Source: a virus (taxonomy: Duplodnaviria > Caudoviricetes). Taken from it: a DNA stretch of 64,000 nt. Positions 1,156 to 48,419 of the stretch are shown piece after piece. The DNA is taken from the IMG/VR virus record IMGVR_UViG_3300024249_000006, positions 2,880 through 66,879 of that record. One strand, written 5' to 3'. How positions within the stretch are numbered: the first letter of the stretch is position 1; each line of letters starts with the position of its first letter. A program made the translations under genes and the position numbers. Below the pieces are notes generated by a model. That model was not told the DNA's origin and searched no databases. It was given only the letters and a program-made list of their open reading frames with translations.

Positions 1156-1407
1156 ATGGATATCATGGCGTATAGCCATCCGAATTGCACCCGAGACCCT
1201 GCCGAGTGTCGGATCACCGTGCTCAGTTCGACCGTGACCGCCATCGACTGGGCGCCGGTTTACGATGGCCATGGCGTGATGAGGAACAGCGATCCGAACA
1301 CGTCGACCACCGTGAAGAGCTGCAGCACCTGCAGCGCTGAATGGTCCGAGGTGCAGAGCGCGGGCGAGCTGATCTATGCGACCACGAAAGACCCGGTGCA
1401 GCCATGA
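1156..1407 (+). CDS. Small Cys-containing hypothetical protein
   Basis: Fills the gap after terL; stop overlaps next start (ATGA); CSTC motif. Confidence 0.6.
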   Translation: MDIMAYSHPNCTRDPAECRITVLSSTVTAIDWAPVYDGHGVMRNSDPNTSTTVKSCSTCSAEWSEVQSAGELIYATTKDPVQP

Positions 1408-1796
1408 CGCCGGGCTCGATGCCGATCTCGATCTACCGCGGCGATTCTTATCGCTGGCAGTTCACGCTCTGGCAGGATCCCGGCAAGACGACGCCGGCGG
1501 ATCTGACCGGGGTCACGGCCAAGGCTGAGATCCGTAGCGCACCGGGCGGTACGCTCATCACCTCGATGGATCTGACGGTCGTGATGCCCAACATCATCCA
1601 GGCGGTGCTGCCGGCCACCAAGACGTCGACGCTGGCGACCTCTGGCGGGGTGTGGGATCTGCAGCTCACCTACACCAACGGCGATGTGCAGACCGTCCTG
1701 CTGGGCGGCGTGACCGTCACCATGGACGTGACCGGCTCGGCCGCCCTGGCCGCCGCGGCCGCCGAGGCGAAGCGCCTGCCAGGGCGTCCTGTATGA
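1404..1796 (+). CDS. BppU-like/tail-associated beta-sandwich protein
   Basis: IYRGDSYRWQFTL, DLTGVTAKAEIR and VWDLQLT..GDVQTVLLGGVTV pattern of BppU N-terminal-like domains; ATG at 1404 overlaps upstream stop. Confidence 0.65.
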   Translation: MTPGSMPISIYRGDSYRWQFTLWQDPGKTTPADLTGVTAKAEIRSAPGGTLITSMDLTVVMPNIIQAVLPATKTSTLATSGGVWDLQLTYTNGDVQTVLLGGVTVTMDVTGSAALAAAAAEAKRLPGRPV

Positions 1797-2287
1797 GCGG
1801 CAGCACGGTCGTCATCGTCGATGTCGCTCCGCAGCAGCCGCCGCTCTCGGTCGTCGAGGTTGAGATCGATGACGCCGCGATCGACGTAACACTGCCGCCG
1901 CCGCCACTCGTTTCGGTCGAGTTACCGCCGCCGCAGCCGCCGCTCAGTGTCGATGTGGTGGCGCCGGTTCCGCCCGTCGTCACGGTCGATGCGTCACTGC
2001 CGCCGCCGCCGAATGTCGATGTGACGCTGCCGGATCCGGTGACCGTCGATGTCGATGCGACGCCGCAGCCGCCCGTGCAGGTCGATGTCCTGGCCGCATG
2101 GCAAGGCGGCATCCCGGATGCGCCGATCGACGGCACGCTCTACGGGCGACTGAATCAACACTGGGTCGGTGTACCTGGTGGCGAGGATCTGGTGACCAGC
2201 GTCGCGCGCAAGATTGGTGACGTATTGCTCTACACCGACGACCTCGAGGACTGGGACAGCAAGGTGCTGGATGGGGGCAACTTTTAG
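1793..2287 (+). CDS. Pro/Val-rich low-complexity tail-fibre-associated protein
   Basis: Repeated V-x-V-x-x-PPPP units, then IPDAPIDGTLYGR fibre motif and LDGGNF C-terminus; coupled to both neighbours. Confidence 0.65.
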   Translation: MSGSTVVIVDVAPQQPPLSVVEVEIDDAAIDVTLPPPPLVSVELPPPQPPLSVDVVAPVPPVVTVDASLPPPPNVDVTLPDPVTVDVDATPQPPVQVDVLAAWQGGIPDAPIDGTLYGRLNQHWVGVPGGEDLVTSVARKIGDVLLYTDDLEDWDSKVLDGGNF

Positions 2288-4039
2288 ATGACCGACATCC
2301 TCCGCATCAAGCGCCGCACCTCCGGAGCTACTGGCGCCCCTGGCTCGCTGGCGAATGCCGAGCTGGCCTACAACGAAGTCGACGACGTTCTCTACTACGG
2401 CAAGGGCACCGGCGGCGCTGGTGGCACCGCAACCGTCGTTATCCCGATCGGCGGCCCCGGCATGGGGTCGAACGCCAACCCGGTTATGAACGGTGTCGCT
2501 GCGCCTGGCGCCTTGGCCAGCTGGGCGCGCGGCGATCACGTCCATCCCAGCGATACGTCTCGTGCACCACTCGCCTCGCCGACCTTCACTGGCATACCGG
2601 CCGCACCAACAGCAGCGCCCGGCACCAACACCACACAGCTCGCGACCACAGCTTACGTGCAGGCCGCTACAGCAGCCGCCGGTGTGCAGAGCTTCAACAC
2701 CCGCACCGGCACCGTCACGCTGCTGCTGACGGACGTGACCGGTGTCGGTGGAGCGCCCCTCGCCAATCCGGTGTTCACCGGCGATCCACAAGCGCCGACG
2801 CCTGCCACGGCCGACAACGACACCAGCGTTGCCACCACAGCCTTCGTGAAGGCGCAGGGCTACGCCACCGTGGCGAGCGTGCCGGTGGCGTCCTCGACCA
2901 ACCCGCTGATGAACGGTGTGGTGGCGATCGGCGTCGGCACCACCTGGGCGCGCGCAGATCATGTGCATCCGGTCGACACGAGCCGTGCACCGCTGGCCTC
3001 GCCAGTCTTCACCGGCAATCCGACCGGGCCGACGCCGGCGACCGGCGATAACAGCGTCTCGCTGGCCACCACAGCCTTCGTCAAAGTGCAGGGCTATGCG
3101 CCGCTCGCCTCGCCGGTCTTCACCGGCAATCCGACTGGGCCGTCGCCTGCCAACACCGACAACAGCGTCTCGCTGGCCACCACGGCGTATGTGCGCGGGC
3201 TGCGCCAGGATCAGTTCCTGGCGCCGACGTCGGATGTTGCCTGGGGCAGCCGCAAGATCACCGCGCTCCTGGATCCCACGAACCCGCAAGACGCGGCCAC
3301 GAAGAACTATGTCGACGGCGCCATCCAAGGCATCGCGCCGAAGGACAGTGTGCGCGTTGCGACGACTGCCAACCTCGCGGCGCTCTCGGGTGCGCTGACG
3401 ATCGACGGCGTGCTGACGGTGGTCGGCGACCGTGTGCTGGTGAAGGACCAGACGGCGCAGGCGAACAACGGTATCTATGTGGTGGCGGCCGGCGCGTGGG
3501 CTCGCTCTGCTGACACCAACACATGGGCCGAGCTGGTCAGCGCCTTCACCTTCGTCTCCGAGGGCGCGACCAACTCGAACAACGGCTACACCTGCACGGT
3601 CAATGCTGGCGGCACGCTCGGCACCACGGCCGTGACCTGGGTGCAGTTCTCCGGTGCCGGTCAGATCAACGCCGGCAACGGCATGACGAAGACCGGCAAC
3701 ACGCTCGATGTCGGCGGCACCACCGCTCGCATCACCGTGCTGGCCGATAGCATCGACATCGATGCAGCCTATGTCGGTCAGACGTCGATCACCACGCTCG
3801 GCGTCATCGCGATCGGCACATGGAATGGCACGACGATCGCGGTCAATCGCGGTGGCACTGGCGCGACCACGCTGACCGGCTACCTCAAAGGCGCTGGCAC
3901 GTCAGCGTTCACCGGCGTGGCGACCATACCGAACACCGACATCACCGGCCTGGGCACGATGTCGACGCAAGCGGCGACCGCGGTTGCCATCACCGGCGGG
4001 AGTATCGACGGCATCACGTTCGATATGGGCAGTTTCTGA
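2288..4039 (+). CDS. Tail fibre protein 1
   Basis: LRIKRR..GAPGSLANAELAYN N-terminus; repeated ARGDHVHP/ARADHVHP, ATTAFVK and DAATKNYVD fibre motifs. Confidence 0.85.
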   Translation: MTDILRIKRRTSGATGAPGSLANAELAYNEVDDVLYYGKGTGGAGGTATVVIPIGGPGMGSNANPVMNGVAAPGALASWARGDHVHPSDTSRAPLASPTFTGIPAAPTAAPGTNTTQLATTAYVQAATAAAGVQSFNTRTGTVTLLLTDVTGVGGAPLANPVFTGDPQAPTPATADNDTSVATTAFVKAQGYATVASVPVASSTNPLMNGVVAIGVGTTWARADHVHPVDTSRAPLASPVFTGNPTGPTPATGDNSVSLATTAFVKVQGYAPLASPVFTGNPTGPSPANTDNSVSLATTAYVRGLRQDQFLAPTSDVAWGSRKITALLDPTNPQDAATKNYVDGAIQGIAPKDSVRVATTANLAALSGALTIDGVLTVVGDRVLVKDQTAQANNGIYVVAAGAWARSADTNTWAELVSAFTFVSEGATNSNNGYTCTVNAGGTLGTTAVTWVQFSGAGQINAGNGMTKTGNTLDVGGTTARITVLADSIDIDAAYVGQTSITTLGVIAIGTWNGTTIAVNRGGTGATTLTGYLKGAGTSAFTGVATIPNTDITGLGTMSTQAATAVAITGGSIDGITFDMGSF

Positions 4040-4043
4040 CCTA

Positions 4044-7000
4044 ATGGCCGACGTTCTAAGGATCAAACGGCGCGCAGCTGCAGGAGCTGCGGGCCCACCA
4101 TCATCGCTTGCCGCTTCGGAGCTGGCCTACAACGAGCGGACCGACATCCTCTACTACGGCAGCGGAAACAGCGTCGGGCTCGCGACCACCATCATCCCGA
4201 TCGCCGGGCCCGGGGCCTTCCTGGGGCTTGGTGGCGGCTCGCTGATCGGCGGCATCGACTTCGGTTCCGCCCTTGCGAGTTCGGTCACCGACCTCTCGCG
4301 GCACATCGCGCTGTACGGCGCGGCCTACGGTTTCAACGTCACCTCGAGCCGGTTGAACGTCGTCTCAGGCGCGAGCATTTTTTTCGTTTCTGGTGGCGCC
4401 GACAAGGTCACCATCAACTCGCTCGGTCTCACCATGCAGAGTGGGACGGCGCTGACGCTGGCGCAGGATCCCACGGGAGCCATGCAGGCCGCCACCAAGC
4501 AGTACGTCGACAACAGCCCGCCAGGAGAGGCACCGAACAACGCCAACGCATACGGCCGCAAAGCGCTGGCCTGGACGCCGGTGACCGACTACACGCGCGT
4601 TGCCACCGACAGCGCGTTCGATCTCAACTCGATCAGCGGCACCGGGGCCGGGCCGTACACCGGCTACCAGGGCGTCTACAGCATCGTCAACCAGACCGCG
4701 GGGCTGAATTTCCCACCCGGCGTCACGACGGCCGCGGTGCTCAACCTGTGGAGCAGCAACCAGGGCTGGACCAATCAGCTCTCGTTTTCCCAGCAAGGCC
4801 TGTTCCACCGATCGATGTCGGGGCAGGGGACGTTCCGAGCCTGGGAAAAGGTCGTCACCGACACTGGCGGCAACTTTACGTTCACCGGGGTCATAAGCGG
4901 CCCAACGCCAGCCCCCGGCACCAACACGACGCAGTTCGCAACCTGCGCTTTCGTGGCGGCGGCTACAGCAGCGTCGGGCGTGCAGACTTTCAACACCAGA
5001 TCCGGCGCTGTCGTGCTCACCAATGCCGACGTGACGGGCGTCCTGCTGCCATCGTCGACCAATCCGCTGATGAACGGGACGGTCGCGATCGGCACATCGG
5101 GCACCTGGGCGCGCGCAGATCACGTCCATCCGGTCGACACCAGCCGTGCACCGCTGGCCTCGCCCACGTTCACTGGTGTACCGGCCGCGCCAACAGCAGC
5201 CCCTGGCACCAGCACAACACAGCTCGCAACCTGTGCCTTCGTCGCCGCTTCTGCTGCAGCTGGCGTCGTCTCGTTCAATGGCAGGACCGGCACAGTCACG
5301 CTGACATCCACCGACGTGTCCGGTGCGTCGGGCCTGCTGACCTCCGGTGGCATCGTGAGCGGCCCGCTCACCCTCGGCACTAACACCGTCTCGCAGCCAC
5401 TGACTCTGAACGGTCCCACAAACAGCGCGCTTCGCGACATCTACTGGCAGACAGCGGGTGTCGCGCGCTGGCGGCTGCACCCCAATTCGACCGCGGAAAG
5501 CGGCGCGAACGTCGGATGCGACCTCGATCTGCTCGCCTACGATGACAGCGGCGCGGCCATCGGGACTTTCGTAGCGCGGTTCAACCGCAGCACCGGCCTT
5601 GTCACGATAGGCAACGGTGGTCTCAGCTTCGGTTCCATCGTTGCGCCGGGCGGCACCACCGACCTCTCGCAACACATTGCGCTGTTCGGCACGACGTACG
5701 GCATCAGTGTCACGTCGTCGCGGCTGAACATCGTCTCAGGCGGCGGCATTTGGTTCAATTCGGTTGGTGTCGACAAGGTCGTCATCAACTCTACTGGCCT
5801 CACCATGCAGAGCGGGACCACGCTGACGCTGGCGCAGGATCCCACGGGAGCCATGCAGGCCGCCACCAAGCAGTACGTCGATGCCGGTGTCACTTCGTTC
5901 AACACCCGCACCGGCGCCGTCACGCTGACGGCCGCGGACATGACGGCAGCGACGGCCCTCGGTGCTCTGACGATCGGCAGCAACACGGCCTCGCAGTTCC
6001 TGTATCTGAACGGACCGGCTGCATCGTTCCGCAATATCCGCTGGCAGACGGCGGGCGTGGCGCGCTGGCAACTGTCCGCCAATGGCACCGCCGAAGCCGG
6101 CAGCAATGCCGGAACCGACCTCGATCTGATCAACTACGACGACAGCGGCACGATCCTGCTGAACCCGGTGGCGCGGTTCACGCGCAGCACCGGCATACTG
6201 ACGTTGAACGGCGGCCTCCTGCTCGGGGCAGCCGCTAATATCAGCTTCGGCAGCACGCTGGCGTCGAGCACCACCGATCTGTCGAAGCACATCGCCCTCT
6301 GGGGCACCACCATCGGGTTCAGCGTCACCAGCGGGCGCATGAACATCGTTGGCGGGACTGTGGTTTTCGTCTCCGGCGGGACTGACGTCGCCACCATCAC
6401 CACGACCGGCATCACCGCCAACACGCCGACAGCGACGGCCGGCACCGAGACCACCGCCCTCGCTAACACGCTGTTCGTCGCGCGGCTTGCGGCCGCTTTC
6501 GCGGGGACGGCCATCACCGATGCCGACCAGACATTGACCGCGGCCCAGGTGGGCAACGCCAGGATCGTTAACATCAGCGGGACGCTGACCGCCGATCGCA
6601 CTCTCACGATGCCACTGACAGGGACGCAGAGAAACTGGATCATCCGCAACGGCACGACCGGCGGTTTCAACATCATCGTCACGGCCGGCGGCGCCACGAC
6701 GTTCTCGATCCCGCCGGCCTATGAGATCGAATTCTGGACCAACGGCGTCAACCTGTTCCCGACGCATGTCCTGTTCGGGGGTTTGCCAACTCGCTTCGGT
6801 GACGCCACCCGCAACGCACTGCTCATCAACCCAGGCTTGGCGTCCGCCGCATGCACCCTCAACGTCAGCGGCACCGGGCCGCTGCAGTTCCTGGTCGGCC
6901 CGACCGCACCAACGGCAGCGCCTGGGACCAACACCACGCAGCTCGCAACCTGCGCTTTCGCAACCGCCGCCGACACCGCTTTGCTGGTCTCGCCGGCGCT

Positions 7001-7739
7001 CACCGGCACGCCGACAGCACCGACTGCTGCGACCGCGACCAACACGACGCAACTTGCCACGACCGCGTTCGTGAAAGCACAGGGCTACGCACCGCTCAAC
7101 GCGCCAGTCTTCACTGGGGCTGTTCAAGTCACCGGCGCAGGAAGCCAGCTATCGATCATCGGGAACACCAGCTCATCGCTCTTTATGTCGAAGTCTGCGA
7201 GCGGCCAGAGCAACGTCATCAGCGGCTATACCGGCGCCACCACCCAGCGATGGGCGATCAACCTGGGGGACAATACGACTGAAAGCGGCAGCAACGCCGG
7301 GTCGGACTTCTCCATCGCCCGCTACACCGACGCCGGCGTCTTGAACGGCGTGCCGTTCCTCATCAATCGCGCCACTGGCAACACCACGGTCACCGGCAAC
7401 TTCCTCGCGACGGGCACGGTCAGCGGCAACGGCGCCTACATCAACACCTCCGATCGGCGTCTCAAAGTGGACATCGCCGACACCGACCGCGGGCTGCTCG
7501 AGATCATGCAGCTGCGGCCCGTTAGTTTCAGACGTAAGCGCATGACAGACGGTCCCCTCGAGCTCGGTTTCATCGCGCAGGAATTGCGAGACGTGATCCC
7601 TGAGGCTGTGGGGCCCACTGACGACCTCGAGGATCCAACCCTCGGCATCATGCTCGATCCGATTGTCGCGGCCCTGGTGAACGGCATGAAAGCGCTGGCC
7701 GCGCGCGTGCAACACCTTGAAGGAAGGACACTCCACTGA
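4044..7739 (+). CDS. Tail fibre protein 2 with C-terminal Peptidase S74-type intramolecular chaperone
   Basis: N-terminus paralogous to 2288 (MADVLRIKRR); internal repeats; C-terminal TSDRRLKVDI..LRPVSF..LGFIAQEL..PEAV. Confidence 0.88.
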   Translation: MADVLRIKRRAAAGAAGPPSSLAASELAYNERTDILYYGSGNSVGLATTIIPIAGPGAFLGLGGGSLIGGIDFGSALASSVTDLSRHIALYGAAYGFNVTSSRLNVVSGASIFFVSGGADKVTINSLGLTMQSGTALTLAQDPTGAMQAATKQYVDNSPPGEAPNNANAYGRKALAWTPVTDYTRVATDSAFDLNSISGTGAGPYTGYQGVYSIVNQTAGLNFPPGVTTAAVLNLWSSNQGWTNQLSFSQQGLFHRSMSGQGTFRAWEKVVTDTGGNFTFTGVISGPTPAPGTNTTQFATCAFVAAATAASGVQTFNTRSGAVVLTNADVTGVLLPSSTNPLMNGTVAIGTSGTWARADHVHPVDTSRAPLASPTFTGVPAAPTAAPGTSTTQLATCAFVAASAAAGVVSFNGRTGTVTLTSTDVSGASGLLTSGGIVSGPLTLGTNTVSQPLTLNGPTNSALRDIYWQTAGVARWRLHPNSTAESGANVGCDLDLLAYDDSGAAIGTFVARFNRSTGLVTIGNGGLSFGSIVAPGGTTDLSQHIALFGTTYGISVTSSRLNIVSGGGIWFNSVGVDKVVINSTGLTMQSGTTLTLAQDPTGAMQAATKQYVDAGVTSFNTRTGAVTLTAADMTAATALGALTIGSNTASQFLYLNGPAASFRNIRWQTAGVARWQLSANGTAEAGSNAGTDLDLINYDDSGTILLNPVARFTRSTGILTLNGGLLLGAAANISFGSTLASSTTDLSKHIALWGTTIGFSVTSGRMNIVGGTVVFVSGGTDVATITTTGITANTPTATAGTETTALANTLFVARLAAAFAGTAITDADQTLTAAQVGNARIVNISGTLTADRTLTMPLTGTQRNWIIRNGTTGGFNIIVTAGGATTFSIPPAYEIEFWTNGVNLFPTHVLFGGLPTRFGDATRNALLINPGLASAACTLNVSGTGPLQFLVGPTAPTAAPGTNTTQLATCAFATAADTALLVSPALTGTPTAPTAATATNTTQLATTAFVKAQGYAPLNAPVFTGAVQVTGAGSQLSIIGNTSSSLFMSKSASGQSNVISGYTGATTQRWAINLGDNTTESGSNAGSDFSIARYTDAGVLNGVPFLINRATGNTTVTGNFLATGTVSGNGAYINTSDRRLKVDIADTDRGLLEIMQLRPVSFRRKRMTDGPLELGFIAQELRDVIPEAVGPTDDLEDPTLGIMLDPIVAALVNGMKALAARVQHLEGRTLH

Positions 7740-7948
7740 TGACGCAGCAAACACAGCAGCCGCAGGACACCCAGATGCTGCCGGCGATGGTGACACTGAC
7801 GGTTGCTGACTGGGGTCGGGCGATCCAGCTCATCGGCGTCAACCCATGGAACGACGTCAACACGCTCATCGTGAACATCCACCGTCAGGTCAACGATGCC
7901 GTGGGAGCGCAGACCAGTCGCGAACCGGAGCGTGCCACGTCCGACTGA
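7739..7948 (+). CDS. Small fibre-associated (chaperone-like) protein
   Basis: Coupled to the fibre gene stop; 69 aa. Confidence 0.55.
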   Translation: MTQQTQQPQDTQMLPAMVTLTVADWGRAIQLIGVNPWNDVNTLIVNIHRQVNDAVGAQTSREPERATSD

Positions 7949-8017: not shown

Positions 8018-9301
8018 GTGGGCATGATCCGCAACGCGGTCTCGACCATAGCGCGCTCGCTTGGTCTGACCGACACACGATTGATCTCATGGCTGGGCGG
8101 CGGACCGACGTGGTCAGGCGAGATTGTGTCGCCCCGCACCGCGCTGGCGATCGGCACAGTCTATGCCTGCGCACGGCTGATTTCGCAGACCATCGCGACG
8201 CTGCCGTGCCAGCTCTACAAGAACGATGACGCCGGCCGCGGCACCCTCGCACGCGACCATCCGCTCTATCTGCTGCTGCACGACCAGCCCAACGCGGACA
8301 TGACCGCGGTGACGTTCTGGGAGTGCGTCGTTGTCCACATCCTGCTGTGGGGCAACGCCTACATTCAGATCGAACGCCTCGGCACTCGCGTCGTTGCGCT
8401 GGCGCCGATGGTGCCAGACCGGTTGACCGCACGTCGCAACTCTGACGGATCGGTCACCTACTTCTACTCGTGGTACGGGAAGGTCACTGAGCTCGACGAA
8501 ACCCAGGTGCTGCACATCAAGGGTTTCACCCTCGATGGCATGACGGGATTGTCAATCGTCGGCCAAGCGCGGGAGACGCTGGGCATCTCGATGGCAGCGG
8601 ACAAGTCGGCCGCATCGTTCTTCAGAAATGGCATGAAGCCATCGATGGTTTTCACGGTCGACAAGTTCCTGCCAGAGCCGCAACGCAAGCGGTTTGAAGA
8701 AGAAACGAGGGATAAACTGGTCGGCGCAATCAACGCCGGCGGCTGGGCGCTGCTCGAGGGCGGCATGAAGGCCGAAGCGATCTCGATGAAGCCCGAGGAC
8801 GCGCAGCTGCTGGCGAGCAGAGCGTTCAGTGTCGAGGAAGTCTGCCGCTGGTTTGGTGTCCAGCCCGTAATGATCGGGCACATGGAAAAATCTACCGCCT
8901 GGGGCACCGGGCTCGAGCAGATGAACCTCTGGTTTCTAACTTACACTCTGCGTCCGCTGCTGAAGGCGATCGAGCAGGCAATTAGAATGTCGCTGCTGAA
9001 CGCCGGTGAGAAGAGCACCTATTACGCCGAGTTCAATGTCGATGCATTGCTGCGCGCCGACAGCGCGGGCCGTGCAGCACTGATGAAGACCATGGCCGAG
9101 AACGGCCTGCGCACGCGTAACGAGCTGCGCGCACTCGACAACGTCGCACCCATGGATGGCGGCGACGACCTCACCGTCCAATCGAACCTCTTGCCGATCC
9201 AGCTGCTCGGCAAGGAAGCGCAGTTCCGCATCCTCAAGCCGCTCGATCCGAACTTCAAACCGAGCGATGCGCAGCCCGGGCAAGAGCCGCCTGCCAGCTA
9301 G
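8018..9301 (+). CDS. HK97-family portal protein
   Basis: ALAIGTVYACARLISQTIATLP, LLWGNAY, EVCRWFGVQP; 427 aa. Confidence 0.95.
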   Translation: MGMIRNAVSTIARSLGLTDTRLISWLGGGPTWSGEIVSPRTALAIGTVYACARLISQTIATLPCQLYKNDDAGRGTLARDHPLYLLLHDQPNADMTAVTFWECVVVHILLWGNAYIQIERLGTRVVALAPMVPDRLTARRNSDGSVTYFYSWYGKVTELDETQVLHIKGFTLDGMTGLSIVGQARETLGISMAADKSAASFFRNGMKPSMVFTVDKFLPEPQRKRFEEETRDKLVGAINAGGWALLEGGMKAEAISMKPEDAQLLASRAFSVEEVCRWFGVQPVMIGHMEKSTAWGTGLEQMNLWFLTYTLRPLLKAIEQAIRMSLLNAGEKSTYYAEFNVDALLRADSAGRAALMKTMAENGLRTRNELRALDNVAPMDGGDDLTVQSNLLPIQLLGKEAQFRILKPLDPNFKPSDAQPGQEPPAS

Positions 9302-9311
9302 GAGATCGATC

Positions 9312-10211
9312 ATGTTGTACGACCGGTTCGCAGCGCCGATGGAGGTGCTGTTCGTTGGCGACGGCCAGCCGGGCGCCTTCGAAGGCTATGGCGCGGTGTT
9401 CAACAACACCGACTTTTACGAGAACGTCATCGCGCCTGGTGCCTTCACCGATACGCTCGCGACGCACGCAAGCGCCGGCACAATGCCAGCGATGTTTGTC
9501 GAGCACTCGGCGTTTGAGCTGTTCGGCGATCCGCTGCCGATCGGTGTCTGGCAGGCGATGTCGGAGGACAGCAAGGGCCTGCACGTTAAAGGCAAGATCA
9601 GCGCGCTCGACACCGACCACAGCAAACGCATCATCGGGCTGATGAAGGACAAGGCCATCACCGGCCTGTCCATCGCCTTCAAGGTGCCCGCGGGTGGCGA
9701 CGTTCGGTCCAACAAGGCGGGCGAACCGAAGCGCCTCATCAACAAGCTGAACCTATACGCGGTCGATCTGGTGCGTGATCCGGCGAATGCCCAGGCGCAG
9801 GTCACGCATCTCAACTCGATCATGCGCAATGTCGACGCGCAGACCGCAACCGACGCTGTCGCGGCCTGCATGAAGCTGCATCAGACGTCGCTCGCCGGTC
9901 AGAACAGTCCGACCAACGATCAGCGCTCTGCCATGTGGGGCCACCTGTCGGATGCGCATCGCGCGCTGACCGGCCAGGACGTGCCGTTGGGCATGACGTT
10001 GGCGAAGCCCACCACGATACGCGAGTTCGAAACGTGGCTCCGGGAGGAGTTTCACTTGTCGCATTCGCAAGCCCGAGCCATCGCCGAGCTTGGGTTCAAA
10101 GCGCCTCGGGATGAGGCCGACCAATTGGCGGCAAGCGAACTGCGGTCGGAGACGCTCAAGCAGCTGTCGACGCTCGCAGCTGATCTCTCCCTCATCTCCA
10201 GCAAAAGGTAG
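9312..10211 (+). CDS. HK97-type prohead protease (Peptidase S78)
   Basis: FEGYGAVFNNTD, FVEH, PIGVW, GLSIAF; ATG at 9312 after GGAG; sits between portal and capsid. Confidence 0.9.
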   Translation: MLYDRFAAPMEVLFVGDGQPGAFEGYGAVFNNTDFYENVIAPGAFTDTLATHASAGTMPAMFVEHSAFELFGDPLPIGVWQAMSEDSKGLHVKGKISALDTDHSKRIIGLMKDKAITGLSIAFKVPAGGDVRSNKAGEPKRLINKLNLYAVDLVRDPANAQAQVTHLNSIMRNVDAQTATDAVAACMKLHQTSLAGQNSPTNDQRSAMWGHLSDAHRALTGQDVPLGMTLAKPTTIREFETWLREEFHLSHSQARAIAELGFKAPRDEADQLAASELRSETLKQLSTLAADLSLISSKR

Positions 10212-10217
10212 GACACC

Positions 10218-11420
10218 ATGGCTGCTGACCCCAATCCCGAGGTCGAACTCAAGAACCTTGCCGTCGATCTGAAAAAGGCGACCGACGAAGTCAAAACCTT
10301 CGCCGAAAAGGCCGAGACCGAGATGAAGAACCTCGGCACCATCACGCAGGAGACCAAGGACAAGGCCGATAAGGCGCTGACCGAAATGAACACGATCAGC
10401 GAGCGCCTCACCGCGGTGGAGCAGAAGATGGTTCGCCGTGGCGGACCGGGCGACGAGGAGCTGAAGACGCTCGGCGACCTCGTGGTCGAGAATGCTGCCG
10501 TCAAGGGCCTGATGGAGACCAAGAACGGGCAAGCCCGCGTCGCCATCGAGCTGAAGGACATCACCTCGGGCAATCCCACCGTCGGTGCCGGCCGCTCGCC
10601 GTCAACCTCGTTGGTGCAGGCCGATCGCGTCGGCATGGTGACGCCACCGATGCGGCAGATGGTGGTGCGGAACCTGATCACGCCCGGGACCACGTCGTCG
10701 AACGCGATAGAGTACGCGGTGGAAACCGACGACCCGAACGTGACCGGCGCTGCGGTGGTGTCGGAAGGCCAGCTCAAGCCGCAGAGCAACATCACCTTCG
10801 ATCTGAAATCGACCCCGGTGCGCACGATCGCGCATTTCATGAAAGCCTCGCGGCAGATCATGGACGATGCGCCGCAGCTGCGGAGCATCATCGACGGTCG
10901 GTTGACCTATGGCTTGCAGTTCGTCGAGGAAGGCGAGCTGCTCTACGGCGACGGCACCGGCCAGCACATCCTCGGGATCGTCCCCCAGGCCTCGGCCTAT
11001 GCACCAGCCTTCGCGCCCACCAACCCGACGCCGATCGACCAGCTCCGACTGGCGTCACTGCAGGCGACGCTCGCACTGTATCCGGCAAGTGGCTACGTGC
11101 TGCACCCGACCGATTGGGGCCGCATCGAGCTGACCAAGGATCTGCAGGGCCGCTACATCGTCGGTGACCCGACTGGTCTGCTTGGCAAGCGTTTGTGGAA
11201 CCTTCCGGTGGTCGATACGCAGGCCATGCAGGTCGGCAAGTTCTTGACTGGCGCGTTCCAATTGGGTGCACAGATCTTCGATCGGATGTCGATCGAGATC
11301 CTCATCTCGACGGAAAACGCCGACGACTTCGTGCGCAACATGATCACCATCCGCGGTGAAGAACGCCTCACCCTGGCGGTCTACAGGCCTGCAGCATTCA
11401 TCTACGGCACGCTGCCCTGA
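10218..11420 (+). CDS. HK97-family major capsid protein
   Basis: Coiled-coil delta domain, VSEGQLKPQS, RTIAHFMKASRQIMDDA, GEELLYGDG, RGEERLTLAVYRPAAF. Confidence 0.95.
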   Translation: MAADPNPEVELKNLAVDLKKATDEVKTFAEKAETEMKNLGTITQETKDKADKALTEMNTISERLTAVEQKMVRRGGPGDEELKTLGDLVVENAAVKGLMETKNGQARVAIELKDITSGNPTVGAGRSPSTSLVQADRVGMVTPPMRQMVVRNLITPGTTSSNAIEYAVETDDPNVTGAAVVSEGQLKPQSNITFDLKSTPVRTIAHFMKASRQIMDDAPQLRSIIDGRLTYGLQFVEEGELLYGDGTGQHILGIVPQASAYAPAFAPTNPTPIDQLRLASLQATLALYPASGYVLHPTDWGRIELTKDLQGRYIVGDPTGLLGKRLWNLPVVDTQAMQVGKFLTGAFQLGAQIFDRMSIEILISTENADDFVRNMITIRGEERLTLAVYRPAAFIYGTLP

Positions 11421-43779: not shown

Positions 43780-44306
43780 TCATTCCGGCGGCACGTAATC
43801 GGGCGGCGGATAGACGGACAGGCCGCCGACGTCGATGCCTTGCTCGCGCAGGTGCTTCGCGATGTCATCGCCGAACGCCTCGTGCAGCTGCAGCAGCATC
43901 TTGGCGTGCTCGACCGGGAACATGGCGATCACCCGGCTCACATCGCGCGGCAGATGCTGCAGCACGGCGCGACGCAATGCCTTGACGCCATCAGCAGTTT
44001 TGATGGCTGCTTCGATCGCCTCATCGGTGAGGCGCCGATCCTCGGTCCGGATCTCTAGCAAGAGGCAGAACGTGTGTTTCTCGGCCATCAGTGCATCGAG
44101 CCTTTCTGCTGCAGCGACGCATGCACGGAGAGCACCTTGGAGTTGTGATCCATCAGGAACCTGTTGACCACGTAGGGGTCCATATCCCGCACCATCAGGC
44201 CCATAGCGAGCGCCAGGATGTGCAGCATGTCGCCGCAGGAAACCTGCTCCTGCTTGGCGCGATCAACGATCACGGTGACCGCGTCGACTATCTCTTGTTC
44301 GTCCAT
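43780..44306 (-). CDS. Two small hypothetical proteins (43780..44088; 44088..44306)
   Basis: Coupled; 44306 start follows an AGGTAGG RBS just downstream of the array. Confidence 0.55.
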
Positions 44307-44330
44307 CCAGGCACCTACCTTCCCCAAAAG

Positions 44331-44926
44331 ACAGCAACCCGGCTGGGCAAGCGTGACCTGCCCAACCGAGCCCTGCCCGGCGCGACCTCGACGGGCGCGC
44401 CACGCCGGTCCTTAACCGCCGCGACGACACCAGAACGAACCCGGCCTAGCCGGGCCCGGCCCCGCGCCGTCTAGCCGCGCCAAGACCGCCACACCGTTTC
44501 CGGCCAAGCCCCGACATGACGAACCAAACCCCGGTTCCCCTTGCCGCGACCGCCATACCAGACCGGACCCGGCCAAGCCCCGGAGCGCCCCGCCACGGCA
44601 TGCGTTGCCAAGCCAGGGATTGCCCAGACCGCCACACCGCGTCTAGCCGCCGCCATGCCCGGCCACACCCAGCCAGCCTCGCCTAGACCGCCATGCATGG
44701 CCTTGCCAAACCGGGACGGGACTTACCGTGCCGCGGCCAGACCACGACCGCCGATCCGAGCCTCGCCCTGCCGAAACGAGCCTAGCCTTGTCCGCACCAG
44801 GACCGCCGCGCCTGCGTCTCGCCGTACCCTGAACGGGCCTCGCCGAGCCGCGCCGTTCCATGCCGCAACGCACCTTGTCTCGCCGCGTCACGCCCAGCCA
44901 AGACCGCCGTGACATCCAGCGCCGCA
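44331..44926 (-). ncRNA. Non-coding (GGY-NN)n pentamer array with GGCGGTC delimiters; candidate guide-RNA array
   Basis: Plus-strand GACCGCC at 44484, 44548, 44627, 44686, 44746, 44801, 44902 (AACCGCC at 44414); 5-nt periodic NN-RCC between them; lies just after the RAMP operon. Confidence 0.8.
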
Positions 44927-45391
44927 TCAAGCCGTAACCTGTTGCGCGCGCCCCGAGAGCTGCTCCACCTGGAAGTGCAGCTGCTCGACCTCCCTGCCCA
45001 TGCCGATCGCGTGCGCCACTTCCTTGGCCCGCCGTAGCGCGGCCAGCGCCCGATCGAACTCCGCCAGCAACACCTCGCGGGCCAACTGCTCGTCCGTGCG
45101 CAACCGAGCCGTCGAGATGTAGCCCTGCAGGGGCGCCATCGTCGGATCCCGCACGAACATCGGCGCCTTGACGACGAACGGGCTGACCGTCAGCACATAC
45201 TCGTAGCTGGCGATCAAGGTCCGCGCTTCGTCGAGCCGCCACGAGGCCGCAGCCTTGCGATCGTCCCAGGTGAAATGACGATGCAGTGGCGATCGGGGCG
45301 ACTTGGCCGCAGCGACGACCTCGTTCGGCGTCAGTCGCCCCTTATTGCGAGCAGCGATTGCATCCAGAGCTCTACGTGCTCTGTCGTTCAT
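44927..45391 (-). CDS. 154-aa helical accessory protein coupled to the RAMP gene
   Basis: ATGA overlap with the RAMP stop; LTPNEVVAAAKSPRSPLHRHFTWDD..A..WRLDEARTLI. Confidence 0.8.
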   Translation of the reverse strand: MNDRARRALDAIAARNKGRLTPNEVVAAAKSPRSPLHRHFTWDDRKAAASWRLDEARTLIASYEYVLTVSPFVVKAPMFVRDPTMAPLQGYISTARLRTDEQLAREVLLAEFDRALAALRRAKEVAHAIGMGREVEQLHFQVEQLSGRAQQVTA

Positions 45392-46224
45392 GCCGCTTCG
45401 TCCAGCTCTGGCTCATCCTCGTGGCCTGGGATCTGCGCCCCCTTGGCCTCGCGGCCGAGGCGGATGAGCTCCGCGCTGTATTCGGCCAGCTGTTCCTGCG
45501 ATTCATCATCGTAGCAATCGAATTTTTCGAGTGCGCGATCCTGTGCTGCGCAACCACCCTCGCGGATGATCCGCTTGTAGTCTGCGTCAGTGGCACGGCA
45601 GAGCCGGAATTGCCCAAAGCTGCCGCTGCCCTTCTCCTGGCGCCAATCACCGATGCCGCAGAGGATGCCGCCGGCGTGCAACAGCGTGGCAATCTGCTTG
45701 GCTGTCATCAGCGGTTGCGCGAAGCGAATCGTCACCTCACAGCACCATTCAGGAATGATCGCGCGCGTACGGATGTCCGGTGTCTGCTTGATGTCGGCTG
45801 ACCGCACGACCGACATCAACAGCTGCGGCACGCCGTAGATGTCGACGAATTGGCCCGGCACCCAGATGCGTCGGCCAACGCTGGTTTTGGTCGCGCCCGG
45901 CATGTCGAGCGCGGCCGTCTTGATCGAGCCCTTCAGTGCTGAGGCCGGAAAGCGCAGTCGTGTCGGCGGGTTCGGTCCCGAGTTGCGATAGACCGATGAA
46001 CGATATTCTGCTGGCGGATTGTGCTTGACGTTGGCAGCGCGTTCCGCGGCATTTTTCGGTGCTGAGCCCATCAGCAGGCTGCGCTTCGCCTTCTCTGACA
46101 TTCGATTGAAGATCAACGGCGATGTGCCGATGATCCAGAACTGCACTGAGCCTTCTGATAGTTCGAGGATCTTGGCCTCGGTGACGACCTTGCCTGCGCT
46201 TTTCTGTGCTGGTGCTCTTGCCAT
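45388..46224 (-). CDS. Stand-alone RAMP-superfamily (Cas7/Csm3-like) protein
   Basis: IIGTSPLIFN (beta1), FPASALKGSIK (cf. IPGSSLKGALR), C-terminal Gly-rich loop GIGDWRQEKGSGSFGQF; CAGGAG RBS. Confidence 0.8.
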   Translation of the reverse strand: MARAPAQKSAGKVVTEAKILELSEGSVQFWIIGTSPLIFNRMSEKAKRSLLMGSAPKNAAERAANVKHNPPAEYRSSVYRNSGPNPPTRLRFPASALKGSIKTAALDMPGATKTSVGRRIWVPGQFVDIYGVPQLLMSVVRSADIKQTPDIRTRAIIPEWCCEVTIRFAQPLMTAKQIATLLHAGGILCGIGDWRQEKGSGSFGQFRLCRATDADYKRIIREGGCAAQDRALEKFDCYDDESQEQLAEYSAELIRLGREAKGAQIPGHEDEPELDEAA

Positions 46225-46567
46225 TTGTGCTTCTCCTGTCCGGTAGGATTGGCGTTCAAGTCATGCAGTCTCCCGCAATAGATCAGTCTCTTCCTGGGCT
46301 CCCCCAGGCGGTTTTGGCGGCATGAACGGCGGCAGCATGTCGACACGATCGTTGACATACTGCAGCACGCGACGCCGCTGCGGCACCGGCATGGCTTGCA
46401 GGATCGCCATGATGCGCCGGATATCGTAGAGCTCGTGGTCCCTCGCGCGGCCCATCAGCGCAGCACCAGCAGCGCAGTGCTGGCCGCTACAGCCAGGGCG
46501 AACAGCGCGAGCGCGCCATCGGTCCGCCAATCACGCAATGCTCGTCGCAGTCGTCGCTGTTTGTTTG

Positions 46568-47884
46568 TCATGCGCTGACACTCCTGAGTTCTGCCGCCTT
46601 CGCCTTCTCGGCATTGTTGATCCGCTGCGCGAGTTCCGGTCGCTCCATCAGCAGCCGCTTGGCCAGGGTCTGCAAAGCGGTGCCACCGGTCGCCATCTTC
46701 AGTTGCACCTCGGTCTTGGCTGCTGCGATGTCGGCGAGGATCTGCTCGGTCCGCTCCAGATCTTTGTCGGGAGCCCGCTGCTGTCCCTCGTCGACCGGCG
46801 TGTCACTTTTTGCCGTCTCATTTGAGGGCGGATCGGGGTTGCAACGTTTCCAGCTGGCGTTCAGCGCCGCGTTGATCTCCTTCGCCATCTCGGGCCGCTT
46901 CTCGACGAACCAGCGCAGCGCGTCCTGCACCTCGTCCAGTGCGATGAGGGCGTCATGATCCGCCGGCGTCGTGGTGGCGTTGAACCGCGCGATCAGCTCA
47001 TCGGCCTTGGCGCGGTTCTTCGCCTCGCCGCGCAGCTGCGTGGACTCAGACTGAGTCCTGGGTGTGGACTTTGGTGGCGGCGGGGCAGGGGCCTCGCCGC
47101 GTGCCTTGGCGGCGATCGCCGCGCCCACCGCCTCATCGAGCGGCCGGTTCAGCGGGATCAGGTGCGCGTCCTGCGCATCGAGCTTGATCGGTACCGGGAA
47201 GCCTCGCGGATCGATGTCCGGGTGCTTCACCGGATCCAGTGGATACAACATGAACGACATGGTCATATCGAACATGAAGTCGCTGCCACACACCGGTTGC
47301 AGGCCGCCGTCGACCCACTCGGTTTTCTTCGGATCGTCCTTCTTCGGTCGGATGATCAACTTCGGCTCGGCGCGCAGGCAGCAGATCACATGCATATTCA
47401 GCTGTATGAACCGCTGCAGCATCGACTTGTGCGCGCGCTTCGGCTTGATCCAGGCGGTGCCCTTCACCCGTTCGCGCCGGTCCCAGTAGCCCCTGGCATC
47501 GGGGTCGCCGGCGAGCCGGTTGAGCTCATCCTCCATGCGCTCGAGCACTCCGCCGGGCCCGACGTGCTCATGGCTGACGCTGTCGAGGATCAATACTGCG
47601 GCGCCCATCTTCTGCGCCTGCTCGGCAGCGGCTGTGTATTTCTCGCTGATGAACGGCGGGTAGATGCTGCAGTGCTGGAATTCGAATTGCCCGGCATAGC
47701 GTCGGCCGCGATTGTTCTCGGTGTCAGCGAAGAAGATCTTGCCCTCTGGTCCAGCGAGCCCGCGCGCCAGGCGCAGTGCTGACATGGTTTTCCCAGCGCC
47801 TGTCGGGCCGCAGATTGCGATGAGATAGGTCTCGGCGCCCTGTACCGCTGGCGCATAGATCAGCTCTTGCGGCGCGTCAGGCAT
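46568..47884 (-). CDS. Sak4-like AAA ATPase/recombinase
   Basis: GPTGAGKT Walker A, ADTE, LILDSVSHEH..GGVL, VICCLRA. Confidence 0.85.
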   Translation of the reverse strand: MPDAPQELIYAPAVQGAETYLIAICGPTGAGKTMSALRLARGLAGPEGKIFFADTENNRGRRYAGQFEFQHCSIYPPFISEKYTAAAEQAQKMGAAVLILDSVSHEHVGPGGVLERMEDELNRLAGDPDARGYWDRRERVKGTAWIKPKRAHKSMLQRFIQLNMHVICCLRAEPKLIIRPKKDDPKKTEWVDGGLQPVCGSDFMFDMTMSFMLYPLDPVKHPDIDPRGFPVPIKLDAQDAHLIPLNRPLDEAVGAAIAAKARGEAPAPPPPKSTPRTQSESTQLRGEAKNRAKADELIARFNATTTPADHDALIALDEVQDALRWFVEKRPEMAKEINAALNASWKRCNPDPPSNETAKSDTPVDEGQQRAPDKDLERTEQILADIAAAKTEVQLKMATGGTALQTLAKRLLMERPELAQRINNAEKAKAAELRSVSA

Positions 47885-48419
47885 CAGGGCTCCAACATCG
47901 CCGCGACGGCGCGCTTGAGATCGCCGACCGTGAACATCGCTTCGCGGCACGGCCGCTCGAGCAGTCCCCAGTCCTCGGCGCAGAGCAGCCGCAGATTGTC
48001 GTGGGCGGGATTGGTGCCGAGCCACTTGCGGCCTTCGTCGGCAAACGGTCGCAGCGCCTCGGTGAGCACCTCCAGTCTGCGGCGCAGCTGCCGATCCTCT
48101 TTCTGCTTGCGCACCCGATAGGCGCGGTTGCGTTCCTTGCCGGTGAGCTGCGGTTGAATGTGGATCACGACTTCAGCTTCGGATCGATCACGACGCGCGT
48201 GCTGGGGCCGATGCCATCAGCCTTGGTGATGATGTCCGCCAGCGCGGCCTCGTTGTTGCCAGAGAAGATCATGATGTCGACGTCGATACCGAGTGGCCTG
48301 CCGTCGACCTTGATGAAACCATCGCCCGGCGTCCGACGCAGATAGTCGAGGTTGGCAAATGTGAGGCCGAGCACCAGCAGATGTCGGCCGTCTTTGCCCT
48401 GCACACTTGCTTTCAGCAT
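47884..48419 (-). CDS. Two small hypothetical proteins (47884..48168; 48165..48419)
   Basis: Coupled within the recombination operon. Confidence 0.5.

What the first reader, a model, noticed from the sequence alone, without database searches (positions are those of the whole stretch)
44331..44926. 5-nt-periodic array with constant GGY and variable NN, segmented by GGCGGTC
Delimiters on the plus strand (GACCGCC) fall at 44414 (AACCGCC), 44484, 44548, 44627, 44686, 44746, 44801 and 44902, giving spacings of 70, 64, 79, 59, 60, 55 and 101 nt. Unit 44555..44626 is exactly 14 pentamers plus 2 nt, and 10 of its 14 triplets are RCC. On the transcribed strand it reads GGCGGTC TG GGC AA TCC CT GGC TT GGC AA CGC AT GCC GT GGC GG GGC GC TCC GG GGC TT GGC CG GGT CC GGT CT GGT AT. 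Unit 44491..44547 is exactly 11 pentamers plus 2 nt (NN string GC AA GA GG TT TC AT GG TT CG AC GT). A period of 5 is incompatible with codon structure. The NN strings differ between units, so this looks like stored information rather than satellite expansion. The delimiter is a candidate processing site.
Basis: seen in the sequence. Interest (0 to 1): 0.92.

Follow-up and report, generated by a model that had tools for sequence, protein, structure and literature searches.

The report
Phage VIPR guide-RNA array
The five-letter repeat is the guide-RNA array of a VIPR system, a CRISPR-like RNA-guided gene silencer of phages first described in 2026. Two of its guides read as aimed at the capsid-protease and small-terminase genes of rival phage-like elements, so it is a clear new example of a known kind.

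Summary
Window 44327-44926 is the only 5-nt-periodic region in the 64 kb (lag-5 autocorrelation z = 8.6). On the minus strand it reads (GGY-NN)n, with low entropy at three positions and about 2 bits at the other two.

It is a VIPR vrRNA array (bioRxiv 10.64898/2026.04.26.720920). The gene two upstream (45391-46224, minus) is a Vipr/Cas7-like RAMP. Its profile hits only the SUSP1 Vipr in the PDB (E 2.4e-8), the GGY-binding residues are kept, and the predicted fold matches Cas7/Csm3. A conserved 154-aa partner gene lies between it and the array. A hairpin terminator closes the array.

Delimiters are 1-nt-overlap junctions (GGCG|GTC), the published "staggered" layout. Vipr relatives from GC 32-67% phages mostly carry such arrays where enough flanking DNA is held.

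Under the published 1-nt-skip rule, guide vr6 spells a conserved motif of S78 prohead proteases. It gave at least 80 exact seed hits, many in RcGTA-like clusters. Guide vr5 spells codons 1-15 of a P27-type small terminase. The phage's own alleles mismatch both guides. The other guides have no identified target.

This scan has already found VIPR arrays on other DNA. Expression and processing are untested.

The parts
45391..46224 (-). vipr: 278-aa Cas7-like RAMP (stop codon at 45388-45390)
   Evidence: phmmer hits PDB 36pp_D 'SUSP1 Vipr protein' at E 3e-4. A profile of 9 homologs hits it at E 2.4e-8, and it is the only significant PDB match. The AF2 model (pLDDT 74) gives only Csm3/Cmr4/Cmr6/Cas7-11 as top Foldseek hits. 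R154, C189, D193, W194 and R195 align with SUSP1 R138, C173, D177, W178 and R179.
44927..45391 (-). vap candidate: 154-aa conserved partner gene. Its ATG overlaps the vipr stop.
   Evidence: A homolog lies directly beside vipr in 29 related loci. The AF2 model has pLDDT 91: an N-terminal alpha/beta domain with only weak winged-helix-like matches, plus a C-terminal helical hairpin. It matches phrog_15946, a family of unknown function.
44905..44926 (-). Conserved leader between the vap stop and the first junction (core motif TGGATGTCA ... GGCG|GTC)
   Evidence: The same motif follows the vap stop in L002, L013, L014, L015 and L016.
44803..44904 (-). vr1: about 20 pentamers, including two 6-nt steps
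   Evidence: Parse. No target found.
44748..44803 (-). vr2: 11 units, including one 6-nt step
   Evidence: No target found.
44688..44748 (-). vr3: 12 units, including one 6-nt step
   Evidence: No target found.
44629..44688 (-). vr4: an irregular unit with a 4-nt step and a GGCGGCGGC run
44550..44629 (-). vr5: 16 pentamers in perfect register. The guide spells codons 1-15 of a P27-type terS on the antisense strand.
   Evidence: The degenerate peptide scores 63 against the phage's own TerS N-terminus, versus a null of 37.4 +/- 2.6 with maximum 44. Of 10 exact seed hits, 3 sit on terS start codons. The own allele matches 22/30.
44486..44550 (-). vr6: 13 pentamers in perfect register. The guide spells A-[IL]-D-G-L-S-I-G-F-R-T-V of S78 prohead proteases on the sense strand.
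   Evidence: At least 80 exact 9-unit seed hits in IMG/VR, compared with 0-1 for the five other seed scans. 79 of 80 fall in a homologous protease, and the full guide matches 19-23 of 24 positions (76 of the 80 at 21 or more).
44416..44486 (-). vr7: 14 units, with a 6-nt step at the end
   Evidence: No target found.
44327..44416 (-). vr8 (a short unit with a GGCGGTT junction) running into an intrinsic terminator: hairpin 44372-44336 followed by a T-run
   Evidence: The terminator scan finds a 17-pair stem followed by a T-run. The RNA fold gives -60.1 kcal/mol, z -4.2.
9654..9688 (+). The phage's own, non-matching allele of the vr6 target, inside its S78 protease gene (9309-10208)
   Evidence: Pfam Peptidase_S78 at E 2.5e-21. 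The own motif AITGLSIAFKVP matches vr6 at only 13/24 positions.

Best explanation
The region is the guide-RNA (vrRNA) array of a phage VIPR system, organised as vipr, then vap, then the array, all on the minus strand.

Inferred from the published mechanism: the array is transcribed as a G-rich RNA. Vipr protomers bind one pentamer each, burying the GGY and exposing the NN dinucleotides. These pair with double-stranded DNA whose sequence reads NN-x-NN-x, and transcription there is blocked.

Shown here: the adjacent Vipr homolog with its GGY-contact residues, the GGY/NN statistics, conservation of the arrangement in distant phages, a terminator at the array end, and decodable targets for two guides.
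- vr6 matches the conserved G-L-S-I-G-F motif region of S78 prohead proteases in many phage-like and RcGTA-like elements.
- vr5 matches the first 15 codons of P27-type small-terminase genes.
- In both cases the skipped base falls on the codon wobble position, and the phage's own alleles are mismatched.

Inferred only: the -1 register break at each GGCG|GTC junction ends one Vipr filament and starts the next, which would define the individual guides.
For: Vipr identity: PDB 36pp_D, E 3e-4 for the single sequence and 2.4e-8 for the profile; Cas7/Csm3/Cmr fold; the G-loop GIGDWRQEKG and the thumb arginine are conserved.

Repeat statistics.

Conserved linkage: all 10 IMG/VR loci found through Vipr or its partner carry 5-nt-periodic arrays (9 by the segment caller, L004 only at its contig end), at GC 32-67%. 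17 of 33 metagenome loci carry one; many of the rest are short contigs that end at or soon after vipr or vap.

Published definition of vrRNAs (9-16 GGY/NN repeats, 1-nt-skip rule, staggered 1-nt-overlap arrays).

Targets:
- vr6 seed: at least 80 exact hits, 79 of 80 in a Peptidase_S78 gene, in the wobble phase.
- vr5.
- No self-match of 80% or more.
- A guide of relative L014 matches this phage's terS at 21/24 positions. Only 2 of 2000 shuffles reach that score.

Structure: terminator. The guide body has no fold beyond shuffles (z -0.6), as expected for a protein-bound guide.
Against: - No RNA data exist for this phage, so transcription, processing and Vipr binding are not shown.
- Six of the eight units have no identified target.
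- Several units contain 4-nt or 6-nt steps and non-GGY triplets (for example TCC, CGC, GCC), so part of the array may be degenerate.
- There is no roughly 40-nt 3' tail or pseudoknot like that of the characterised type II vrRNAs.
- The best natural matches are 23/24 for vr6 and 26/30 for vr5, not perfect.
- The L014-to-terS match is only suggestive once 106 tested guides are allowed for.
Confidence: 0.9

Rival explanations
1. It is a VIPR-derived array that is largely decayed. Only a minority of units (vr5, vr6, perhaps vr7) still work as guides, and the rest are relics kept by hitch-hiking.
For: There are 19 register breaks in 596 nt, of which only 8 are delimiter junctions. vr1-vr4 and vr8 contain 3-, 4- or 6-nt steps. 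No target was found for vr1, vr2, vr3 or vr7.
Against: The closest relatives L013-L015 show the same level of irregularity with intact vipr and vap. [quoted passage not shown] Contigs from three other soil samples are identical over the parts of the array that they cover. Missing targets may only reflect database gaps.
Confidence: 0.07
2. It is a binding track on RNA for a ring or filament protein that regulates the operon itself, like TRAP on its spaced triplets, and it carries no guide function.
For: The geometry of a triplet plus a 2-nt spacer, with 11-16 repeats per unit, resembles the TRAP site (my own knowledge). The array sits inside an operon.
Against: The neighbouring protein is a Cas7-like Vipr, not TRAP-like. 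A pure scaffold would not have NN strings that spell conserved codons of foreign genes in the wobble phase. NN content turns over completely between relatives.
Confidence: 0.015
3. It is a DNA-level element: a replication origin, an R-loop or G-quadruplex-forming tract, or expanded satellite DNA in the recombination module.
For: There is strong G-over-C skew on the transcribed strand (269 G against 161 C). The region neighbours a Sak4-like ATPase gene.
Against: AT-rich relatives keep the 5-nt period as GTT-NN with few G runs. Tandem Repeats Finder sees no satellite. The arrays sit between a stop codon or short leader upstream and a terminator or the next gene's ribosome site downstream, and they always share the strand of vipr.
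Confidence: 0.015

Closest known systems
Staggered vrRNA arrays of VIPR systems (bioRxiv 10.64898/2026.04.26.720920, fig. S18)
   Same: Contiguous GGY/NN pentamer arrays in which one vrRNA ends where the next starts, with a 1-nt overlap. Here GGCG|GTC shares one G, so junction spacing is 5k-1. They lie next to a vipr gene in a phage.
   Different: I could read only the figure legend, not the figure, so the exact junction sequence and the VIPR type of the published examples are unknown to me. By the paper's own wording, this layout was not among those confirmed by small-RNA sequencing.
Type II VIPR of Escherichia phage SUSP1 (Vipr + vap1 + four vrRNAs; PDB 36pp; bioRxiv 10.64898/2026.04.26.720920, .720927 and 10.64898/2026.10.15.759431)
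   Same: A Vipr RAMP with equivalents of R138, C173, D177, W178 and R179. Guides are GGY/NN with 9-16 repeats. Targeting follows the 1-nt-skip rule with the skip on codon wobble positions. Targets are competing mobile elements, there is no self-target, and a small accessory gene lies beside vipr.
   Different: This Vipr has 278 aa against 202, with about 70 extra C-terminal residues, and is alignable to SUSP1 over only about 50 residues. There is no 3' tail of about 40 nt with a pseudoknot. Eight guides sit in one array downstream of vap, closed by one terminator. The partner protein has no detectable similarity to any solved or named family, and I had no Vap sequence to compare it with.
Class 1 CRISPR backbone (Cas7/Csm3/Cmr4 filament on crRNA)
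   Same: The predicted fold of the 278-aa protein matches Csm3, Cmr4, Cmr6 and Cas7-11. A protein filament on a guide RNA breaks the pairing periodically.
   Different: There are no CRISPR repeats or spacers, no other cas genes, and no adaptation module. The period is 5 nt with 2 pairing bases, not 6 nt with 5. The guide is made entirely of repeats.
TRAP binding site in Bacillus trp leaders (11 spaced G/UAG triplets)
   Same: A fixed triplet plus a 2-3-nt spacer on RNA, with roughly 11 repeats per protein assembly (my own knowledge).
   Different: There is no TRAP-like protein here. The spacers carry information. The arrays hold about 110 pentamers.

Membership tests
VIPR system | A Vipr protein (minimal RAMP with RRM core, G-loop and thumb) encoded beside the array | tested here: met
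   SUSP1 Vipr in PDB 36pp, E 3e-4 and 2.4e-8; Cas7-family fold; conserved G-loop.
VIPR system | Residues that read GGY are conserved (SUSP1 R138, D177, W178, R179) | tested here: met
   R154, D193, W194 and R195 align with them. The residue roles are taken from 10.64898/2026.04.26.720927.
VIPR system | vrRNAs made of about 9-16 tandem pentamers, with conserved GGY and hypervariable NN | tested here: met
   Units hold 11-20 pentamers. Entropy is 0.47, 1.26 and 1.05 bits at the triplet against 1.93 and 1.97 bits at NN.
VIPR system | NN strings match natural DNA by the 1-nt-skip rule, mostly in coding sequence with the skip on wobble positions | tested here: met
   vr6. vr5. The other six units have no match.
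VIPR system | No self-targeting at 80% NN identity or more | tested here: met
   Best own-genome matches are 22/30 for vr5 and 13/24 for vr6 at the homologous site. Every guide is at null level except vr5 at its own terS.
VIPR system | A conserved accessory (vap) gene | tested here: inconclusive
   The 154-aa gene is conserved beside vipr in 29 loci. Its relation to the published vap1-6 cannot be tested, because I had no Vap sequences. Its fold gives only weak winged-helix-like matches.
VIPR system | vrRNAs are expressed, processed and co-purify with Vipr | not testable with these tools
   This needs RNA sequencing or biochemistry.
Type II VIPR (SUSP1 / P. fulva clade) | An invariant 3' tail of about 40 nt with a hairpin or pseudoknot after each repeat tract | tested here: not met
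   Units abut at a 7-nt junction. The guide body has no fold beyond shuffles. The only strong hairpin is the terminal terminator. No Rfam family matches.
Staggered-array VIPR layout | Adjacent vrRNAs overlap by 1 nt, so the end of one marks the start of the next | tested here: met
   At GGCG|GTC the upstream register ends on the G that starts the downstream register. Spacings are 5k-1 wherever no internal step occurs.
CRISPR-Cas | A repeat-spacer array plus cas genes for adaptation and processing | tested here: not met
   Repeat finders show no repeat of 25-40 nt. The neighbouring genes are an AAA/Sak4-like ATPase and unknowns.

The most novel reading that the evidence does not exclude
Guide vr6 is aimed at RcGTA-like gene transfer agents of the phage's (probably alphaproteobacterial) host, not only at rival phages. 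It would bind the most conserved protease motif in the GTA head operon, and the phage would thereby shut down the host's GTA production during infection. That would be the first case of a phage using an RNA-guided system against a domesticated host element. The same locus would also be a natural test bed for how tail-less staggered arrays are cut into guides.
Probability: 0.25. Interest if true: 0.6.

Novelty: new member of a known kind. Interest (0 to 1): 0.4.

Why it matters
VIPR was described only in 2026, and natural targets are known for few clades. This soil phage adds several things.
- It is a clean, complete example of the tail-less staggered layout: leader, eight guides, terminator.
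- Two guides have targets that can be read directly. Each targets a highly conserved motif of an essential packaging or head-maturation gene, with synonymous variation absorbed by the skipped base.
- The phage's own copies of both genes escape by non-synonymous differences.
- The large share of RcGTA-like clusters among the vr6 hits suggests a possible phage-versus-GTA conflict and hints at an alphaproteobacterial host.
- The G-loop Trp-to-Asn change in the clade that uses GTT-NN repeats is a testable specificity determinant.

Tried and rejected
- Rfam at permissive threshold: no family, so no hammerhead ribozyme between the units.
- ARAGORN: no tRNA gene.
- Tandem Repeats Finder: nothing.
- GenBank phages, megablast: no match.
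- My first ideas (a TRAP-like track, a primase or origin site, an R-loop or G4 tract) were dropped once the Vipr hit and the targets appeared.
The 81%-identical sister phage (P0001, a 67.7-kb contig) could therefore not be fetched, and no close-relative array could be compared.
- blastn-short of this array against all relatives' loci: no shared guide. No near-identical units among L013-L015 either.
- Seed scans for vr1 (two seeds), for vr7, and an 11-unit vr5 seed: 0 hits. The other guides do not match the 83 target-like loci above the null.
- Sigma-70 promoter scan of 43900-48300: none.
- Sequencing runs: no RNA holder listed. Contigs from three soil runs are identical to the parts of the array that they cover, and the fourth run gave only short, divergent pieces, so no population variation could be read.
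- vap fold searches: no match with Foldseek E of 0.001 or better, and VIA Z of about 8 only on the generic helical hairpin. The profile against the PDB found nothing meaningful.
- Complex prediction was not used, because the partner in question is RNA.

Full report
**Observation.** The stretch 44331-44926 is 72% G+C and strongly skewed, with 269 C against 161 G on the plus strand.
- Its autocorrelation peaks at lag 5 (z 8.6 against dinucleotide shuffles) and at multiples of 5. Lag 3 is depleted.
- A sliding scan shows that this is the only such region in the 64 kb.
- Read on the minus strand, it is a run of about 110 pentamers of the form GGY-NN. Position 1 is G in 93% of units, position 2 is G or T in 89%, and position 3 is C or T in 95%. 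Positions 4 and 5 carry 1.93 and 1.97 bits.
- Tandem Repeats Finder, Rfam and ARAGORN find nothing here.

**Context.** The window is most of a 66.9-kb IMG/VR virus record that CheckV rates complete. All flanking genes are on the minus strand. In order of transcription they are:
- an AAA/Sak4-like ATPase (46568-48025);
- a small ORF;
- a 278-aa gene (45391-46224, phrog_4652);
- a 154-aa gene whose start overlaps the previous stop (44927-45391, phrog_15946);
- the array;
- a 72-79-aa ORF.

The array ends in a 17-pair hairpin followed by a T-run (44372-44327). It is therefore a terminated transcription unit. No sigma-70-like promoter was found, so read-through from vipr-vap is the simplest assumption. 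That is an inference.

**Conservation.** I searched IMG/VR with the two upstream proteins. This gave ten loci with GC content from 32% to 67%. All carry strong 5-nt-periodic arrays on the same strand, directly after or between these genes.
- In GC-rich loci the unit is GGC-NN. In the AT-rich marine clade it is GTT-NN.
- A metagenome scan gave 33 more loci. 17 of them have arrays. Many of the rest are short contigs that end at or soon after vipr or vap.
- The family has more than 740 unnamed homologs.

**Identification.** A literature search and earlier notes of this scan both pointed to VIPR systems, so I tested that reading directly.
- The 278-aa protein hits one PDB sequence only, the SUSP1 Vipr protein (36pp), at E 3e-4. 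A 9-sequence profile raises this to E 2.4e-8.
- The aligned segment contains the thumb arginine and the G-loop C-G-x-G-D-W-R. The cryo-EM paper assigns these to recognition of G1, G2 and Y3.
- The AF2 model's top Foldseek hits are all Csm3, Cmr4, Cmr6 or Cas7-11.
- The published vrRNA definition fits: 9-16 GGY/NN repeats with conserved GGY and hypervariable NN.

**Architecture.** At each delimiter the upstream register ends GGC-GG. The last G of that unit is also the first base of a GTC-NN unit in the downstream register. Adjacent units therefore overlap by one base, and junction spacing is 5k-1.
- This is what the VIPR paper calls a staggered array. By its own wording, that layout was not among those confirmed by RNA sequencing.
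- There is no 40-nt tail or pseudoknot as in type II. The guide body folds no better than shuffles (z -0.6).
- A short leader containing TGGATGTCA precedes the first junction here and in L002 and L013-L016.
- Other clades use GGCA|GGC or GTCG|GTT junctions, which give the same -1 break.
- I infer, without a test, that the register break stops one Vipr filament and seeds the next.

**Targets.** I used the published rule, in which the NN dinucleotides are joined by one skipped base.
- *Self-targeting.* No guide matches the phage's own genome at 80% or more.
- *vr5, own genome.* Its best own hit (22/30) covers codons 1-15 of the phage's small terminase on the antisense strand, with every skipped base on a wobble position. 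The gene lies at genome 1835-2359, just outside the window, and matches Pfam Terminase_4. Translated, the guide reads M-[RS]-G-R-[KN]-P-A-P-T and onward. It scores 63 against the own TerS N-terminus, where shuffled guides give 37.4 +/- 2.6 with a maximum of 44.
- *vr5, databases.* A 9-unit seed gave one exact hit in IMG/VR and nine in species genomes. Three of those ten sit exactly on terS start codons, and their full-guide matches are 23-26 of 30. The other seven look random.
- *vr6.* A 9-unit seed gave at least 80 exact hits in IMG/VR, which is the listing cap. The five other seed scans of that collection gave 0 or 1. 79 of the 80 lie in homologs of one gene, a Peptidase_S78 prohead protease, at the motif A-[IL]-D-G-L-S-I-G-F-R-T-V. 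The full guide matches 19-23 of 24 positions (76 of the 80 at 21 or more), and the third codon positions vary freely.
- *vr6, kind of element.* Of the 37 hit loci that are 9 kb or longer, 29 carry RcGTA-type genes (DUF2460, BR0599, GTA_TIM). L063 is a complete 14.4-kb RcGTA-like cluster.
- *vr6, own allele.* The phage's own S78 protease (9309-10208) has AITGLSIAFKVP at that site and matches vr6 at only 13/24 positions.
- *Attack in the other direction.* A guide of relative L014 matches this phage's terS at 21/24 in the wobble phase. Only 2 of 2000 shuffles reach that score, which is suggestive once 106 tested guides are allowed for.
- *Other guides.* No targets were found for the remaining units.

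**Partner gene.** The 154-aa protein is conserved next to vipr in 29 loci. It folds confidently (pLDDT 91) into an N-terminal alpha/beta domain and a C-terminal helical hairpin. Structure matches are weak (MarR, PadR and forkhead-like, Foldseek E above 0.2) or generic. It is a vap by position. Its type and role are open.

**Population data.** The stretch occurs nearly unchanged in 24 soil, rhizosphere and root runs. Contigs from three of the four laid runs are identical over the parts of the array that they cover. Guide content differs completely from that of relatives with 62-64% Vipr identity.

**Verdict.** The element is a member of a kind that is already published, and this scan has met it on several other genomes. 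Three things here go beyond the papers I could read: the decoded protease/GTA-like and terS targets, the mismatched own alleles, and the leader-to-terminator anatomy of a staggered array. Expression, processing and binding remain untested.

Noticed in passing
L006-L008 and L041-L043 versus all other Vipr loci: The G-loop reads GIGD-N-RQEKG in the AT-rich clade, whose repeats are GTT-NN. It reads GIGD-W-RQEKG in the roughly 20 loci checked whose arrays are GGC-NN. The Trp corresponds to SUSP1 W178, which stacks on G2. This looks like a specificity switch, but the Asn clade is a single lineage, so it counts as one event.
   Followed up: partly
L016:10356-11300: This relative has vipr (G-loop GVGD-F-R), vap, the leader, regularly spaced GGCGGTC junctions and a terminator. 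Between the junctions there is almost no GGY periodicity. It may be a variant with a looser repeat code.
   Followed up: partly
L014:11560-11640 and L016:~10960-10990: The leader motif (TGGATGT.CA ... GGCG|GTC) recurs inside long arrays. This suggests array duplication, or an internal start or processing signal.
   Followed up: no
L003, L009-L011, L034: Some relatives have three arrays that bracket vipr and vap, running from a stop codon to the next ribosome site. They use a different junction (GGCAAGGCA|GGC). The L009-L011 Vipr is only 27% identical and has G-I-C-E-G-R in the G-loop.
   Followed up: partly
window 1156-7948: terL and the portal gene (8018-9298) are separated by a block that includes a 1251-aa protein with a Peptidase_S74 chaperone end. 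This is probably a fibre cassette.
   Followed up: no
genome 958-1422 (outside the window): An HNH endonuclease gene lies just upstream of terS, the usual HNH-terminase pairing.
   Followed up: no
window 44443-44481: Other contigs in the same soil samples share about 39 nt with this array and then continue as different C-rich pentamer arrays. Other VIPR arrays therefore coexist in these soils (tables 7 and 8).
   Followed up: no
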